Positions 9,247 to 13,942 are shown, counted from the first letter of the stretch. The stretch is 64,000 nt of DNA from a virus (IMGVR_UViG_3300028833_000055:1-64000); one strand, 5' to 3'. Numbers and translations: made by a program. The notes: a model not told the origin generated them from the letters alone.

Positions 9247-9280
9247 AAAAAATGGGATGTGAATCACATCCCATTTTTTT
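9247..9280. terminator. Bidirectional intrinsic terminator
   Basis: AAAAAATGGGATGTG/CACATCCCATTTTTT between convergent genes. Confidence 0.8.
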
Positions 9281-10826
9281 AATTCTCTTCAGTTTCCTCC
9301 GTATAACCGAGTTGTGTCTCAACATCAACTTCACCGGCGTCAATCTGCTTCGCCTCTCTGAAACGGAAGGCGTTGGTCTTTAATTTAAACGCTTCGGGTT
9401 TGACATCGTTGTCTATACGGACAACAAGTCCTTCACGGGGAACCTTGGTCTTACACATTGTCTCGTCCATCTCCATTCCGAACTGCTTGTCTTCCTCAAG
9501 ACGGCTAAGAACCTTCTGACTCCAATATTCTTCGGATGTGTCAATATCCGGATAAAGGTCTCCGAGACGACCGTGATATAAAGTCTTGATAGGTTTTATC
9601 TTCGTTTCGAGTTCGGGATGTTCGTCGAGAAGTTTCAATGTCCACCTATATACATCCTGCACATCCCATTCCTTATGATTTCCTTCCTCATCGGTTTCGG
9701 TAATCCTGTAAGGCATCAAGATATTCTCACCCTGTTTACACCCATAGTCGTATCCCTTCTGTATCCAGCTCGTTGTTCCGGTGACATATCCTGCAATCTC
9801 ACCGTAGAGTGTCATTCCTTTATTCAGGAACGGATATATGAGTTTTCCGTATTCCGACCAGATGTCAAGTTTGTAGAATCCCTTTCCAACATCCTTGTTG
9901 ATATACTTGTTCTTGATAACACCTCTCGATGAAGTGACCTCACCGTACTCAATCCGGTACTTCGGATAGACGTGTTCCCTTTTCTTGTGGTCTATCGAAC
10001 TCAATACCCTTCTGAAAAGGTTCCTTACCCTCCTGATGAACTTCTCAAAGAAGTTTTCCTCACAATATTTCTTCGTGAGGATATTACCGCAGATAAAACT
10101 TGTACCGTGTACCTTGACACTTATATTGACAACAGTGTCCGGTGTGAATCTCCAGATGTTATCCTTCAACTGGTTCGTGTCATAGTGGAAGGTGAACTGA
10201 CCTTCAATCATACGGTCCAACTTCTCAATCCTCTTTTTTCTCTTTCTCTCCCTTCTCGTAGTTCCGTCACCGATGTTTCTCGGCTGTTTCACCTCCGGAA
10301 CGAAGGCCTTGACGAACAATTCGCCGTCAATGGTGTCGAACTCGAAAGGAACTACAACACCGTCCTCGTTGGGTTTGAAGCAGTTTTCGAAATCGTACTT
10401 CCGTACATCCGGTTTCCACTTCGCTAGCGAACTTATCGGGAACAAACATCCCTCCGAAGCACACCCACGAAGTTTTACGATACGGACACGACCATGCTTG
10501 TTGAAGTATCCGACCTTCTTCTTCGCTTCATCCTCCTTTCCGTCATCAATGAGTTTCTGCACCTCCTCGTAGTTCTTGTTAAGATGTCTTTCACCAATCT
10601 CGAACTGGTTGTTGGTGGACAGAAAGTCCTTGTTGATGGCGGTTTCAAGCTTACAGTACACCATAATGTCTCCGGTCTTGACATCATTCTTGCCGACAAC
10701 CACCTGGTATACCCCTCCGATGTTCGTCTTTGCAAGAAAATCGGAACCCTCTATCGGGATGAGTTCGCCAATCCTTACAATCTGGGCACAGTATTCAGAT
10801 TTAATCCCATCACTTTTTGTAAACAT
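9279..10826 (-). CDS. RNA ligase, DRB0094/Rnl5-like, with N-terminal OB domain
   Basis: AQIVRIGELIPIEGSD N-terminus; motifs VKVHGTS, LYGEI, REGLVVR, FKLK. Confidence 0.8.
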   Translation of the reverse strand: MFTKSDGIKSEYCAQIVRIGELIPIEGSDFLAKTNIGGVYQVVVGKNDVKTGDIMVYCKLETAINKDFLSTNNQFEIGERHLNKNYEEVQKLIDDGKEDEAKKKVGYFNKHGRVRIVKLRGCASEGCLFPISSLAKWKPDVRKYDFENCFKPNEDGVVVPFEFDTIDGELFVKAFVPEVKQPRNIGDGTTRRERKRKKRIEKLDRMIEGQFTFHYDTNQLKDNIWRFTPDTVVNISVKVHGTSFICGNILTKKYCEENFFEKFIRRVRNLFRRVLSSIDHKKREHVYPKYRIEYGEVTSSRGVIKNKYINKDVGKGFYKLDIWSEYGKLIYPFLNKGMTLYGEIAGYVTGTTSWIQKGYDYGCKQGENILMPYRITETDEEGNHKEWDVQDVYRWTLKLLDEHPELETKIKPIKTLYHGRLGDLYPDIDTSEEYWSQKVLSRLEEDKQFGMEMDETMCKTKVPREGLVVRIDNDVKPEAFKLKTNAFRFREAKQIDAGEVDVETQLGYTEETEEN

Positions 10827-10828
10827 AT

Positions 10829-11587
10829 CTACTTTTCTTTTAATATAACTTCTTTTTTAATTCCATTTTCACCATTGGTGGTGTATTTTCCACCCGTACA
10901 CCTCCCGATGGTCTCCTTTATCTTGTCCCCCATCTTTTCAGCATCTAAAGGTTCTATTTCAATACCTAATGTCTTGCTGACGATATCGAGTGCAAGCGCA
11001 CCATAACTTTCTTCCAATTCTTTCTTTTTGTCCATTTCCTTATTTTTATTTTCTATTATCTCCTTTTCCATTTTTATAATTTTCCGTTTCAACGATACCA
11101 CACGAATACATCCAAGTCTGGCGAGATAAAGTCTCTGTTCGATGGTAAGTTTAATACATCTTTTGTTCTCGACCGGACATTTGGCCACATCTATCCAGTC
11201 ATTGTCCTCATAGAAAACCACCACACCCGCCTTGACTCTCCAATCCTCCTTATTTTCGAAAGAATCCAGAAAATTCAGCACCTTGTCCTTTATCGAAGAC
11301 GGGACACAATAGTAGAAATTCTTGATATAGTCGGACTGATGGTCGTGTTTTTTCTTGAAATCCGCCAAGAAATCTGAAAATGAACGCTTTATCTCTATTT
11401 CCGTAAGATAACCGGAATTTGTGCAGACAAGCACGTCACATTCGTGCCATATCGGTAGAGCGCCTCCTTGACAGATGGCGTTGAATACCACGATTTTTTC
11501 AAGAAAATTGAAATGACTCGACTTTACAAGGGCGACTTCTATCTCATACAAACTTCGTTTCGTATCCATACCTACATCTTTCCACAA
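10829..11587 (-). CDS. PD-(D/E)xK nuclease-like protein (MmcB-like)
   Basis: ECDVL...TEIEIKRSFSDFLADFKK...FYYCVP. Confidence 0.6.
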   Translation of the reverse strand: MWKDVGMDTKRSLYEIEVALVKSSHFNFLEKIVVFNAICQGGALPIWHECDVLVCTNSGYLTEIEIKRSFSDFLADFKKKHDHQSDYIKNFYYCVPSSIKDKVLNFLDSFENKEDWRVKAGVVVFYEDNDWIDVAKCPVENKRCIKLTIEQRLYLARLGCIRVVSLKRKIIKMEKEIIENKNKEMDKKKELEESYGALALDIVSKTLGIEIEPLDAEKMGDKIKETIGRCTGGKYTTNGENGIKKEVILKEK

Positions 11588-12200
11588 GCCTTGTTACGGA
11601 ATATGTCACACAATTCCCAATATGAAATCGGTCTGTAATTGTTCTGGTCAACTCCGACATCATACTGGTTCTTTCTCAATTTTGCCGGTACATCACCGTC
11701 TATCCCGTAACAGGTACCGTCATTCAAAGTGTGGATATGACCGAATACCTGATAGTCCCCGTTAAAGGCACAGCAGGGATAATGTTCTGCATATATTTTC
11801 ACACCATCCACTTCTATGAAAGCCTTGTCGACCACTGCAATAAGTTTTTCATTCGGACTTTCGTTAAGTGGAATACGGTCGTGGTTGCCTCTGATGAGAA
11901 GAATATTTCCGTTAAGTTTCCTCATAAACTTCAGATACGCCTCCGTATTCGGCTTGTGGATTAGCATAAAGTCACCACAGCAAACCACTATTCCGTCTTC
12001 CGGAACAACCGAGTTCCAATTCTCTATAAGCGTATTGTCCATATCGCTTCTCGATGTGAACGGTCTGTGACAATACTTGCAGATATTAAAATGACCGAAG
12101 TGAGTCAAGTGTCCGAGGTGAAGTACAACTTATCTGGATTGAAAACATCCAGTGTGTACATCCCTCGGACAGTATCTCCTTTATACATTATTTCTTTCAT
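11572..12200 (-). CDS. Calcineurin-like metallophosphoesterase interrupted by a 5-nt insert (candidate translational bypass, or pseudogene)
   Basis: The 5' frame 12200-12105 gives MKEIMYKG...LYFTSDT*. The 3' frame from 12102 gives HFGH...GDF...RGNHD...HYP...GHIH. Removing 5 nt restores the SDTHF motif (207 aa). Confidence 0.8.
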
Positions 12201-13086
12201 TTTCTTTTATTTTACGAATATCTTTATATACTAACCCTTCTTTTAAATTTAATTTTTCACAAATTTGTTTTGCAGAATAACCACAATTATACAGATAACT
12301 TACATTTTCAAAATCTTCTTTTGATTTTTCATTTCTACCAACATAGTTTAAGTCAATAATGTCCCATTTTCTTTTAAGTGGTTCAAAACATATTCCTTCT
12401 ATATATTTTTTCTTAAATCTCTTTAATAATTGTGTATCTCCTATTATTAATCGAGCATAACCTTGTTTGTTTATTTTTGTATGATTGTCTAAACCAAATA
12501 ATCTTTTTTCAAAAATCTTTAAAATATCATACCATGATGAATGTACCTTTATTTGTAAATTAAAATCTTTTCTTTTATGTAAATTTCCAATGTGACCATC
12601 TCCATCTACAAAACCAATAAACAAATACGCCAACATATCAATATCCATATTTTCAAAAATTGTTTTTTGTGGTGGATTATATGTTTTATCACTTTTTATG
12701 TCAAATTTTTCTTCAATTTGTTTTATCACATCAACATTCATAATGGAAAATTCGGCACAATCAATATCTGTTCTATATTTTACTTGAGTTTCTGCTTCAA
12801 TATATTTTTTAAATTTTTCAACAGACACTTTATCTTCTCCATTTTGTGTAAATCTAACTCTATAATTTTTATAAAAATGTCCATCTGCCAACAAATATCC
12901 AATCCAATAATATGATTCAGCGGTTTCATTTAAAAGTTTTTCAATTTTACTAGGGTAATTTTTCTTATGTATCTTTTTTCTCGCACAACTTCTACATAAA
13001 AAACTATTTTTGTTTGCAGTAAAACTCTCAAGATTTTTATAAATCTTTTCTTTTCCACACTCAATACAATATCTTTTATATTCCAT
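12181..13086 (-). mobile_element. Free-standing double-motif LAGLIDADG homing endonuclease
   Basis: YWIGYLLADGH and LFIGFVDGDGH motifs, N-terminal CxxC..CxxC, C-terminal HTH-like segment. Visibly AT-rich, with its own CATAAATA motif at 13108-13115. Confidence 0.85.
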
Positions 13087-13170
13087 ATCCTTACTTATAT
13101 TATACTATATTTATGTGTGTATCATTTGTAAAGTTATTTTCTGGATTATTAACCTCCAATGTGTACATAA

Positions 13171-13476
13171 TTATTTCTTTTTCTTTTCATAAACTTCCAC
13201 AATCGGATTCTTGTCTATCCTTGAATATGTTACATATCTACCTTTGGCAACAAAATTCTCATCCTCAAGTTCACAAGTTTCATCTCCACAGATACCTTGC
13301 TGGAAGTTGTATACCAAATTCATACCACTATAAACAAAACACCCCTTTACATAGTCTTTCTCGATGCTTGAATGTACCGGTTCAATCTTACCGTCACACA
13401 CAAACGACACAGGATTCTCATTTTTAAAAACCGTAAATTTCATAATCTTATATCTTTTCTGAGTTATGAGACTCAA
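13171..13476 (-). CDS. Hypothetical protein
   Basis: ORF in the operon; the true start may be the internal MKFTV. Confidence 0.55.
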   Translation of the reverse strand: MSLITQKRYKIMKFTVFKNENPVSFVCDGKIEPVHSSIEKDYVKGCFVYSGMNLVYNFQQGICGDETCELEDENFVAKGRYVTYSRIDKNPIVEVYEKKKK

Positions 13477-13885
13477 TTAAATCCTTGTACCTCTCATATG
13501 TGTTCCTTATGACACTTTCACCAACGGGATTTGGTCTCTTCGAGTCACGCTCTATACACACTTCCAGCGGTGCATATATGAAACGGTATTCTATCTTATA
13601 CCCAAAGAGTTCTGCCAGCGTCTTGTAGTTCTCCAAAGTCGTCGGGTTCATATTCATATTGTCGGAAACCACATCCTTTCCGGTATCCATCGCCGCCATC
13701 AGGGCCGCAGTTTCAATTTTGGTGACCACCTTTTCGAGTTTAGGGTTGAAAGGAAGTCCCATCATCAGTCTTATGTCGTCACGATTGACTCTTATACGGT
13801 TGTCCGGGTCTTCGAGTACAAACTTTCTCGCCAAAGTACTCTTTCCACTGCCCTGCAAACCTTGATATACATAAAGTGTCTTCAT
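13448..13885 (-). CDS. Polynucleotide kinase-like P-loop protein (Pnk kinase domain only)
   Basis: GLQGSGKST, RVNRDDIR, VSDNMN, CIERDSKR; start taken at MKTLY. Confidence 0.8.
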   Translation of the reverse strand: MKTLYVYQGLQGSGKSTLARKFVLEDPDNRIRVNRDDIRLMMGLPFNPKLEKVVTKIETAALMAAMDTGKDVVSDNMNMNPTTLENYKTLAELFGYKIEYRFIYAPLEVCIERDSKRPNPVGESVIRNTYERYKDLIESHNSEKI

Positions 13886-13942
13886 TTTTAGTACAAAATT
13901 TGTTCGTCTATAAATAAAATATAACAAAATATTACGAATAAG

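What the first reader, a model, noticed from the sequence alone, without database searches (positions are those of the whole stretch)
12110..12171. Long mRNA hairpin ending exactly at the putative take-off codon
Seen: on the mRNA strand TGTCCGAGG (12171-12163) pairs perfectly with CCTCGGACA (12118-12110), with inner helices GTACA/TGTAC and CTGGAT/ATCCAG. This roughly 60-nt stem-loop lies within coding sequence, and its last base is the A of the first ACT. Known: a 5' stem-loop refolding behind the ribosome promotes forward sliding in gene 60. Inference: the hairpin is the bypass stimulator, which argues against a random lesion. Alternatively it masks the internal ATG at 12161.
Basis: partly seen in the sequence, partly recalled or inferred. 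Interest (0 to 1): 0.7.

Follow-up and report, generated by a model that had tools for sequence, protein, structure and literature searches.

The report
RNA hairpin behind a ribosome hop
A very stable RNA hairpin ends exactly at the codon where a jumbo-phage enzyme gene is broken by five extra bases. The same hairpin sits beside every one of 59 related broken genes, so it is most likely the spring that pushes ribosomes over the break.

Summary
The hairpin is real: 12171-12110 on the minus strand, MFE -30.4 kcal/mol, z -5. None of 3000 synonymous-codon resamples reached that energy. Its last base is the A of ACT 12110.

That ACT is followed by TGA and a second ACT. This 5-nt insert splits motif I (S-D-T|H-F-G-H) of a metallophosphoesterase, just downstream of a LAGLIDADG homing endonuclease gene.

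I collected 59 distinct interrupted alleles from viral and metagenomic contigs.
- Inserts are 5-14 nt, in 25 sequence variants.
- A stop codon follows the take-off codon in all 59.
- Take-off and landing codons match in 57 (Thr, Leu CTG, Ser TCC).
- All 59 have a 7-12 bp stem ending within 2 nt of the take-off codon.
- The stem covaries at three pairs and keeps G·U pairs, so it acts as sense-strand RNA.

Intact homologues encoding the same peptide mostly lack the stem. So do two intact alleles that carry the endonuclease. Three intact lineages do have a hairpin at this site.

Best reading: the hairpin refolds behind a ribosome paused on the stop codon and drives a short forward hop. This is a miniature of T4 gene 60 and resembles hairpin-stimulated +1 shifting. 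No protein evidence exists.

Other agents of this scan reported the same hop family in at least 8 other genomes. I found no paper describing it.

The parts
12163..12171 (-). 5' arm of the outer stem (TGTCCGAGG). It lies between the AAGGAG motif and ATG 12161.
   Evidence: The same arm is present in relatives L002, L007, L013, L054, L216 and L217, with U·G and G·U variants.
12110..12118 (-). 3' arm of the outer stem (CCTCGGACA). It encodes part of T-S-D and the first base of the take-off Thr codon.
   Evidence: In all 59 interrupted alleles the 3' end of the stem lies at -2..+1 of the take-off codon.
12123..12159 (-). Inner hairpin (GUACAC/G-UGUAC and CUGGAU/AUCCAG, 7-nt loop), -8.9 kcal/mol on its own. 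It encodes codons 1-13 of MYTLDVFNPDKLY.
   Evidence: Two pairs of the apical helix show compensatory changes among nine long-type sequences.
12108..12110 (-). Take-off codon ACT (Thr of S-D-T).
   Evidence: Take-off and landing codons match in 57 of 59 alleles.
12105..12107 (-). TGA stop codon directly after the take-off codon.
   Evidence: A stop occupies this position in 59 of 59 alleles (TAG 29, TAA 25, TGA 5).
12103..12107 (-). 5-nt insert TGACT, absent from all intact homologues. Its last three bases, ACT 12105-12103, are the landing codon, and CAC-TTC-GGT-CAT (H-F-G-H) follows.
   Evidence: Alignment A1. The same insert TGACT occurs in the compact-hairpin alleles L155 and L159.
12108..12161 (-). 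N-terminal mini-ORF MYTLDVFNPDKLYFTSDT, which supplies the Asp of motif I. An alternative in-frame start is ATG 12188.
   Evidence: In intact homologues the Metallophos domain begins at KL[YF]FTSDT.
11572..12102 (-). Body of the metallophosphoesterase, from HFGH to the stop, in the frame reached by a +5 hop.
   Evidence: phrog_547, Metallophos. 98% identical to the intact protein P0002. dN/dS is 0.04-0.13 among interrupted relatives.
12181..13086 (-). LAGLIDADG homing endonuclease gene (301 aa) immediately upstream.
   Evidence: A homologous gene lies upstream of 16 (plus 4 partial) of 51 assessable interrupted alleles.
12095..13163 (-). Mobile cassette relative to the endonuclease-free sister phage L005: endonuclease gene, hairpin, N-terminal codons and insert. 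The crossover back to L005-like sequence lies at 12096-12094, 7-9 nt past the landing codon.

Best explanation
The hairpin is a selected sense-strand RNA element of a short translational-bypass ('hop') module.

The module has three parts: (i) the hairpin, whose 3' arm runs up to the take-off codon; (ii) a stop codon directly after that codon; (iii) a matching codon 5-14 nt downstream, placed just before the His codon of motif I.

Proposed sequence of events (inferred):
1. The ribosome unwinds the hairpin and stalls with peptidyl-tRNA(Thr) on ACU 12110-12108 and UGA in the A site.
2. The 5' arm and inner hairpin are already outside the ribosome. The helix re-zips into the platform cleft, as an SD:anti-SD duplex does in prfB.
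3. Completing the last pairs, which cover the E-site codon GAC and the first base of ACU, pulls the mRNA 5'-wards. This breaks codon-anticodon pairing and prevents a return to the take-off codon.
4. The tRNA re-pairs with the next cognate codon, ACU 12105-12103, and decoding resumes at CAC. The product carries an intact S-D-T-H-F-G-H.

Shown: the structure, its conservation and covariation, its strict link to the insert, the matched codons, and the stop codon. Inferred: that ribosomes hop, and that hairpin refolding is the driver.

The insert probably arrived with the LAGLIDADG endonuclease cassette and protects the allele from cleavage. That part is inferred by analogy with T4 mobA/gene 60.

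In this lineage the hairpin also encloses ATG 12161. It may therefore additionally limit initiation there, or couple it to the endonuclease ORF.
For: 1. Real and exceptional structure.

2. Present in 59 of 59 distinct interrupted alleles, with the 3' end at -2..+1 of the take-off codon. About 20 of these were found without specifying the 5' arm.

3. Covariation.
- Compact form: 99.6% of cells paired, three pairs with changes on both sides (7, 7 and 6 of 25 distinct rows), 0 of 500 shuffles as high.
- L034 changes GAC to GAT together with TGTCC to TATCC.
- Long form: three compensated pairs.

4. G·U pairs in 15 of 25 distinct compact rows, against a single A·C. This fits sense-strand RNA, not a DNA cruciform or an antisense RNA.

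5. Not a by-product of the peptide.
- Intact alleles encoding the same FFTSDT use ACA, TCT/TCA and GAT. Interrupted ones use only ACC/ACG, TCG/TCC and GAC (58 of 59).
- Upstream MFE ranges do not overlap in the first protein-based sample.

6. It follows the insert, not the endonuclease. 31 interrupted alleles without the endonuclease keep it. Two intact alleles with the endonuclease lack it.

7. The hop itself.
- 25 insert variants of 5, 6, 7, 8, 9, 10, 12 and 14 nt all start with a stop codon.
- The codon repeated just before CAY is the take-off codon or a synonymous one in 57 of 59 alleles. This includes CTG>CTG, TCC>TCC and ACG>ACG.
- One hop rule restores D-x-H in every frame class.
- Body dN/dS is 0.04-0.13.

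8. Published precedent.
- Refolding hairpins juxtaposed to the E site stimulate forward shifting at CUU-UGA on 70S ribosomes (PMC6321510, PMC3639245).
- Pairing of exiting mRNA has been proposed as the driver in gene 60 (10.1101/2024.12.09.627546).
Against: - No protein, ribosome-profiling or reporter data exist. Hop efficiency is unknown, and release factors compete. In PMC6321510 the hairpin effect was seen only without RF2.
- Three intact lineages carry a hairpin at the site: L002-4 (one mismatch, one G·U), L191 and L225. The hairpin is therefore not exclusive to interrupted genes. They may be revertants or precursors.
- Geometry: at take-off the 3' arm is inside the ribosome. With a 12-nt upstream footprint, a 5-nt hop alone exposes too little to form the outer stem outside the ribosome. 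The helix would have to form in the platform cleft.
- 49 of the 59 alleles were retrieved with a pattern that fixed most arm positions. Alleles are related and move horizontally, so counts are not independent, and part of the conservation could be hitch-hiking in the co-conversion tract.
- For this window the cassette looks recently acquired (the body is about 94% identical to L005 over 3 kb). The window's own allele could be non-functional without showing decay.
Confidence: 0.65

Rival explanations
1. Hitch-hiking relic. The hairpin has no role in decoding. It is simply part of the donor flank copied along with the endonuclease cassette, and its complementarity is kept by templated (quasi-palindrome) mutation.
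For: The window is a mosaic whose foreign tract covers the hairpin. Synonymous divergence in the N-terminal region is lower than in the body, for example 1 synonymous difference in the 54-nt N-terminal region for L054 vs L216, against 56 in the 531-nt body. This fits recent shared ancestry of the cassette.
Against: 31 alleles without the endonuclease still keep a perfect stem. Two different architectures, a 5-nt loop and a 40-44-nt structured loop, keep the same anchoring at the take-off codon. No interrupted allele with a decayed stem was found among 59. G·U pairs are tolerated but A·C is not.
Confidence: 0.12
2. Start-codon mask or translational coupler. The hairpin's main job is to hide ATG 12161, so that the phosphoesterase is translated only by ribosomes arriving from the endonuclease ORF, or only at a low level.
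For: In the window the A and G of ATG 12161 are paired inside a -30 kcal/mol structure. The endonuclease stop lies 20 nt upstream.
Against: In 49 of 59 alleles the hairpin starts about 4 to 15 codons (mostly 10-15) downstream of the start and cannot mask it. L053 has ATA instead of this ATG and keeps the pair through a compensating change. Most long-type alleles have an in-frame upstream ATG. The phage does not use SD motifs, so AAGGAG is probably not a ribosome-binding site.
Confidence: 0.08
3. DNA-level element. The inverted repeat is recognised as DNA, for example as part of the homing endonuclease target or as a recombination hotspot that creates the insert.
For: The repeat lies next to the insertion point and the cassette crossover.
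Against: The endonuclease has two LAGLIDADG motifs, so it is monomeric and expected to bind an asymmetric site (sequence). The 5' arm lies 15-60 nt from the insertion point, beyond a roughly 22-bp site (established knowledge of the family). G·U pairs would be C·A mismatches on the other strand. Two endonuclease-bearing intact alleles lack the repeat. By inspection, the inserts do not extend the palindrome.
Confidence: 0.06
4. mRNA repair. The hairpin guides an RNA endonuclease, and the neighbouring RNA-repair enzymes (kinase, ligases) excise the insert from the transcript.
For: The gene sits among a polynucleotide kinase and RNA ligase genes. The repeated codon makes the excision point ambiguous.
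Against: This model explains neither the invariant stop codon right after the take-off codon nor the use of synonymous rather than identical codons (ACC>ACT in 30 alleles). No precedent is known to me.
Confidence: 0.03

Closest known systems
Phage T4 gene 60 50-nt translational bypass with the mobA homing-endonuclease cassette (Bonocora et al. 2011, as cited; Manning & Atkins, bioRxiv 10.1101/2022.08.31.505936)
   Same: Matched take-off and landing codons. A stop codon directly after take-off. The insert lies next to a homing endonuclease gene and moves with it. [quoted passage not shown]
   Different: The gap is 5-14 nt rather than 50. There is no room for an A-site or extended stem-loop, and no long nascent-peptide signal, since only 18-27 residues have been made. 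The hairpin abuts the take-off codon (0 nt) instead of ending 9 nt upstream. It is conserved with covariation, whereas the gene 60 5' stem-loop is not conserved among gene 60 homologues. The endonuclease is LAGLIDADG, not HNH. The host gene is a phosphoesterase, not a topoisomerase.
prfB (RF2) +1 frameshifting, and engineered refolding hairpins juxtaposed to the E site (PMC6321510; PMC3639245)
   Same: A P-site codon followed by a stop in the A site. A stable duplex directly 5' of the E/P sites promotes movement of the ribosome in the 3' direction. This was shown on 70S ribosomes with a 12-bp GC-rich hairpin.
   Different: There the shift is +1 onto an overlapping codon. Here the displacement is 5-14 nt to a separate cognate codon. 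The natural stimulator in prfB is an mRNA:rRNA duplex, not an intramolecular hairpin.
Low-level 'stop hopping' in E. coli (Weiss et al. 1987; O'Connor et al. 1989; cited)
   Same: Short hops (+5, +6, 9 nt for one residue) of peptidyl-tRNA over a stop or slow codon to a matching codon.
   Different: Those were unprogrammed, inefficient events in reporters without stimulators. Here a conserved natural module with a dedicated hairpin sits in an active-site motif.
Hairpins that sequester the start region in T4-like phages (own knowledge: I-TevI, e, soc)
   Same: In the window the stem encloses ATG 12161, just after a homing endonuclease gene.
   Different: Across the family the hairpin is anchored to the take-off codon, not to the start codon.

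Membership tests
Programmed translational bypassing (gene 60 type) | Take-off and landing codons readable by the same peptidyl-tRNA | tested here: met
   Window ACT>ACT. 57 of 59 alleles match, including CTG>CTG, TCC>TCC and ACG>ACG.
Programmed translational bypassing (gene 60 type) | Stop or slow codon immediately 3' of the take-off codon | tested here: met
   TGA in the window. A stop in 59 of 59 alleles, using all three stop codons and never a sense codon.
Programmed translational bypassing (gene 60 type) | A single polypeptide made from both ORFs without the gap being decoded | not testable with these tools
   Indirect only. The hop restores D-x-H for every insert length, and body dN/dS is 0.04-0.13. 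Needs mass spectrometry of the junction peptide.
Programmed translational bypassing (gene 60 type) | Stem-loop formed by the start of the gap (A-site / take-off stem-loop) | tested here: not met
   The gap is 2-11 nt plus the landing codon, too short for a stem-loop.
Programmed translational bypassing (gene 60 type) | Nascent-peptide signal in the exit tunnel | tested here: inconclusive
   Only 18-27 residues precede take-off. The conserved [VI/LY]-F-(F)-T-S-D-T is also the catalytic motif and occurs in intact alleles.
Programmed translational bypassing (gene 60 type) | mRNA stem-loop 5' of take-off that refolds on exit | tested here: met
   Structure present in 59 of 59 alleles with covariation. 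Its action on ribosomes was not tested.
Homing-endonuclease-linked bypass cassette (mobA/gene 60 type) | The insert travels with an adjacent homing endonuclease gene | tested here: met
   The window is a mosaic relative to L005, and the cassette spans 13163-12095. A homologous LAGLIDADG gene lies upstream of 16 full plus 4 partial of 51 assessable interrupted alleles. Protection from cleavage was not tested.
prfB-type stimulated forward frameshift | +1 slip of the P-site tRNA onto the overlapping codon | tested here: not met
   ACU-U cannot re-pair at +1. The inserts need shifts of 5-14 nt, and the 6-, 9- and 12-nt inserts are in frame.
Start-codon-sequestering regulatory hairpin | The stem encloses the initiation codon across the family | tested here: not met
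   True for ATG 12161 in the window. In 49 compact alleles the stem lies about 4 to 15 codons (mostly 10-15) inside the ORF.
Intrinsic terminator | GC-rich stem followed by a U-run | tested here: not met
   The stem is followed by CTTGACTCAC, and the terminator scan did not call it.
Known Rfam RNA family | Match to a curated covariance model | tested here: not met
   No match at E <= 1 in 11900-12400.
Calcineurin-like metallophosphoesterase (PF00149 / phrog_547) | Motif I D-x-H at the N terminus plus GD, GNHD, H and GHxH | tested here: met
   The body matches from profile position 22 onward. The Asp of motif I is in the mini-ORF, and the motif is complete only after the hop.

The most novel reading that the evidence does not exclude
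Hairpin, stop codon and matched codon together form a self-sufficient, portable hop module. An RNA stem abutting the P-site codon would then be enough, without an A-site stem-loop or a nascent-peptide signal, to drive efficient forward bypass of 5-14 nt in bacteria. Homing endonucleases would have spread this module through phage phosphoesterase genes as a shield for their own target site. The natural series of more than 25 insert variants and two hairpin architectures would give a direct test of the 'pairing of exiting mRNA as driver' model.
Probability: 0.4. Interest if true: 0.88.

Novelty: new variant of a known kind. Interest (0 to 1): 0.8.

Why it matters
Programmed bypassing in bacteria and phages has so far rested on one system, T4 gene 60. 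Its 5' stem-loop is not conserved among homologues, and its role as a forward driver is still debated.

Here a much simpler natural module keeps only three signals: an upstream hairpin, a stop codon and a matched codon. The hairpin is the one element that is strictly conserved and covarying. If it drives the hop, it offers three things:
- a minimal system for measuring how mRNA refolding at the ribosome exit moves the reading frame;
- an explanation of how a homing endonuclease can split a catalytic motif without killing the gene;
- a warning to annotators that such "pseudogenes" in phage genomes are probably expressed.

Tried and rejected
- Megablast of the locus against GenBank phages gave no match.
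- Rfam gave no family. The terminator and promoter scan did not call the hairpin.
- A viral-contig scan for more long-type alleles (AARTTGTAYTTYACNTCGGAY) found only two contigs already in hand.
- A second protein-based sample centred on a compact-type gene returned 41 intact alleles and only the query itself as interrupted. It therefore added controls but no new cases.
- A phage tRNA that could explain the hop was not found. The genome encodes tRNA-Thr UGU and CGU but no GGU. An odd tRNA with a 4-nt anticodon (acca) does not read ACU.
- AAGGAG 12181-12176 as a Shine-Dalgarno site was rejected. SD cores occur upstream of 26 of 241 long ORFs, against 8% background, and the spacing to ATG 12161 is 14 nt.
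- The extra outer helix AAGGAG/CUC-A-CUU that encloses the insert in the 141-nt fold is not predicted in the minimum-energy folds of L007, L013 or L054, so I dropped it.
- Frameshifting (-1 or +1) or stop read-through was considered as an alternative to hopping. Each would insert residues between D and H of motif I, and each insert length would need a different mechanism.
- The idea that the insert extends the palindrome by template-switch mutation was rejected by inspection. The inserts are not complementary to the sequence 5' of the 5' arm.
- 13 metagenome hits to the hairpin pattern followed by TC[ACT] or TTT (mostly sample Ga0315281) are unrelated repeats and were excluded.

Full report
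**Setting.** The window is the first 64 kb of a 363-kb jumbo-phage record. It has 40% GC, 38 tRNA genes and no use of Shine-Dalgarno motifs. Read 5' to 3' on the minus strand around the finding, the genes are:
- a kinase-only polynucleotide kinase (13927-13448);
- a 101-aa ORF;
- a 301-aa LAGLIDADG homing endonuclease gene (13086-12181);
- a calcineurin-like metallophosphoesterase;
- a 252-aa ORF;
- an RNA ligase.

The phosphoesterase is in two frames. ATG 12161 opens MYTLDVFNPDKLYFTSDT and runs into TGA 12107-12105. The 177-codon body, starting T-HFGH, is in the frame 5 nt further on. Intact homologues read ...FTSDTHFGH... without a break, and their Pfam domain begins at KL[YF]FTSDT. Alignment with intact relatives shows exactly five extra bases, ACT-TG-ACT instead of ACN.

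**The observation.**
- The 72-nt segment folds at -30.4 kcal/mol, z -4.97, with 0 of 200 shuffles as stable. The fold persists in a 141-nt context.
- Resampling synonymous codons while keeping the peptide never reached this energy in 3000 trials.
- No other 72-nt window on this strand of the 64 kb is as stable, tRNA and tmRNA regions included.
- The inner hairpin alone is worth -8.9 kcal/mol. The outer stem adds about -21.

**The break is not a private lesion.** Truncated gene calls among close homologues led to other interrupted alleles at the same codon: ACC-TA-ACT (L007) and ACT-TAGG-ACT (L013), each with a hairpin. Four searches gave 59 distinct interrupted alleles:
- a pattern scan of viral contigs for the break;
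- a protein-based sample;
- two scans for the compact hairpin.

Their features:
- Inserts, counted with the landing codon, are 5 (27 alleles), 6 (4), 7 (4), 8 (17), 9, 10 (4), 12 and 14 nt, in 25 sequence variants.
- Every one starts with a stop codon directly after the take-off codon (TAG 29, TAA 25, TGA 5).
- The codon placed just before CAY matches the take-off codon in 57 of 59 alleles. The pairs are ACC>ACT 30, ACT>ACT 13, ACC>ACC 7, ACT>ACA 3, ACG>ACG 1, and, where the motif is SDL or SDS, CTG>CTG (2) and TCC>TCC (1).

One rule restores D-x-H for all frame classes: peptidyl-tRNA leaves the codon before the stop and re-pairs at the next cognate codon. Frameshifting or read-through would not. 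The bodies are as little as 30-40% identical in protein to the window's. Among endonuclease-free interrupted relatives, body dN/dS is 0.04-0.13 at dS 0.5-0.9.

**The hairpin follows the break.** All 59 alleles have a perfect 7-12 bp stem whose 3' end lies at -2..+1 of the first base of the take-off codon. There are two main architectures.
- In 49 alleles a 10-12 bp stem with a 5-nt loop lies inside codons S-[E/G/D]-V-F-F-T-S-D.
- In the window's lineage the same 3' arm pairs with a 5' arm 40-44 nt upstream, across a structured loop that encodes the N terminus.
- L032, L034, L131 and L194 are intermediate.

In a protein-based sample that ignores the hairpin, the 76 nt upstream fold at -17.2 to -29.8 kcal/mol in interrupted alleles. 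In 42 distinct intact alleles they fold at -16.0 or weaker (U = 0, p = 7e-18; the alleles are not independent).

Intact alleles encoding the same FFTSDT use mostly ACA, TCT/TCA and GAT. Interrupted ones use only ACC/ACG, TCG/TCC and GAC, except L034. L034 has GAT with a compensating TGTCC>TATCC in the 5' arm.

**Covariation.** In the compact set, 99.6% of cells pair. Three pairs switch on both sides: C-G/G-C, G-C/C-G and G-C/A-U, in 7, 7 and 6 of 25 distinct rows. One pair alternates A-U/G·U, and 0 of 500 shuffles reach the observed score. The retrieval pattern allowed the non-complementary combinations at those three pairs, so this is not circular.

In nine long-type sequences three pairs are compensated. 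One is ATG>ATA in L053 paired with TAC>TAT. The excess of G·U pairs over A·C mismatches points to the sense-strand RNA.

**Insert or endonuclease?** A homologous LAGLIDADG gene lies directly upstream of 16 (plus 4 partial) of 51 assessable interrupted alleles. The other 31 have none and still keep stem, stop and matched codon. Conversely, two intact alleles with the endonuclease upstream (L073, L117; motif T-H-W with diverged codons) have no hairpin. The hairpin therefore goes with the insert.

The window itself is a recent mosaic. It is 93-94% identical to the endonuclease-free phage L005 on both sides. Positions 13163 to about 12095 are foreign and L002-like, and the crossover lies at 12096-12094, only 7-9 nt past the landing codon. 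That fits a double-strand break close to the insertion point and an insert that splits the endonuclease target, as in T4 mobA/gene 60. This part is inference.

**Exceptions.** Three intact lineages have a hairpin at the site:
- L002-4, with the window-type structure but one mismatch and one G·U in the outer stem, and a possible endonuclease 3' remnant upstream;
- L191, with the compact form and no endonuclease;
- L225, with an AU-rich 12-bp stem at -20.5 kcal/mol.

They may be revertants that lost the insert between the repeated codons, or precursors. Either way the hairpin is strongly enriched in interrupted genes, not exclusive to them. Two interrupted alleles have mismatched landing codons (ATG, ATT) and may be decaying.

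**Mechanism.** A hairpin 5' of the decoding site has been unwound by the time the take-off codon is in the P site, so it can act only by refolding behind the ribosome. Two published lines make this plausible.
- On 70S ribosomes a stable refolding hairpin juxtaposed to the E site stimulates forward shifting at CUU-UGA. It mimics the SD:anti-SD duplex of prfB (PMC6321510, PMC3639245).
- For gene 60, pairing of exiting mRNA is proposed as the driver of unidirectional forward movement.

Here the stem runs through the E-site codon, and in 16 of 59 alleles into the take-off codon itself. I infer that it re-zips in the platform cleft while the ribosome waits on the stop codon. Completing the last pairs would pull the mRNA 5'-wards and hide the take-off codon, and the tRNA would land on the next cognate codon. 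After a 5-14 nt move the helix would lie at a relaxed distance from the P site, comparable to SD-start spacing.

The weak points are geometry and competition. With a 12-nt upstream footprint, a 5-nt move does not by itself free enough of the 3' arm. Release factors also compete at the stop codon.

**The start codon in this lineage.** ATG 12161 is buried in the stem. ATG 12188 is in frame, A-rich upstream, and overlaps the endonuclease stop. L013 excludes an upstream start, L053 requires one, and the window allows both. Masking of 12161 may be a local side effect. It cannot explain the compact alleles.

**Comparison and novelty.** I found no paper describing short hops in phosphoesterase genes. 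The nearest system is gene 60/mobA. There the 5' stem-loop is 9 nt from take-off and is not conserved among homologues. Here it is the best-conserved signal, and the A-site stem-loop and long nascent peptide are absent.

Other agents of this scan have reported the same phosphoesterase hop family from at least 8 other genomes, including one note of 5-14 nt inserts 'driven by an RNA hairpin'. Those are unpublished AI notes. My results agree with them and were obtained independently before I read them.

Noticed in passing
G000:C1:355659-355737 (outside the window): ARAGORN calls a tRNA with a 4-base anticodon (acca) inside the phage's 36-gene tRNA cluster. It may be a quadruplet-decoding or frameshift-suppressor-like tRNA.
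   Followed up: no
L073 (=L223) and L117, about 100-300 nt upstream of position 1501: Two intact phosphoesterase alleles carry the same LAGLIDADG endonuclease upstream but have no insert and no hairpin. Their motif reads [VI]-S-D-T-H-W with diverged codons. This suggests target-site divergence as an alternative way to self-protect.
   Followed up: partly
L007 1804-2808 and L015/L054: In a sister clade the endonuclease gene has been replaced by a C-5 cytosine methyltransferase gene. Only the last roughly 15 codons of the endonuclease remain as a remnant, while hairpin and TAACT insert persist.
   Followed up: partly
window 12176-12181 with 12098-12104, minus strand: In the 141-nt fold, AAGGAG pairs with CUC-A-CUU beyond the insert. 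This places the 5-nt insert in an internal loop and pairs part of the landing codon. It is not predicted in the minimum-energy folds of L007, L013 or L054.
   Followed up: partly
L146, L151, L156, L163, L164, L176, L181, L186, L189, L197, L210, L212 (sample Ga0315281): An identical 25-nt palindrome (GTCCGAGGTG-TTCTT-CACCTCGGAC) recurs on many contigs of one sediment metagenome outside any phosphoesterase context. It is probably a dispersed repeat of an unknown organism.
   Followed up: no
window 9279-13927, minus strand: The interrupted phosphoesterase lies between a kinase-only Pnk and an RNA ligase (PHA02142/phrog_968 type). It is probably the end-healing phosphatase of an RNA-repair set. 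In L002 the neighbourhood has RtcB instead.
   Followed up: no
L152 and L213: Two interrupted alleles have landing codons that no longer match: ACG>ATG and ACC>ATT. They are candidates for decaying or low-efficiency sites.
   Followed up: no
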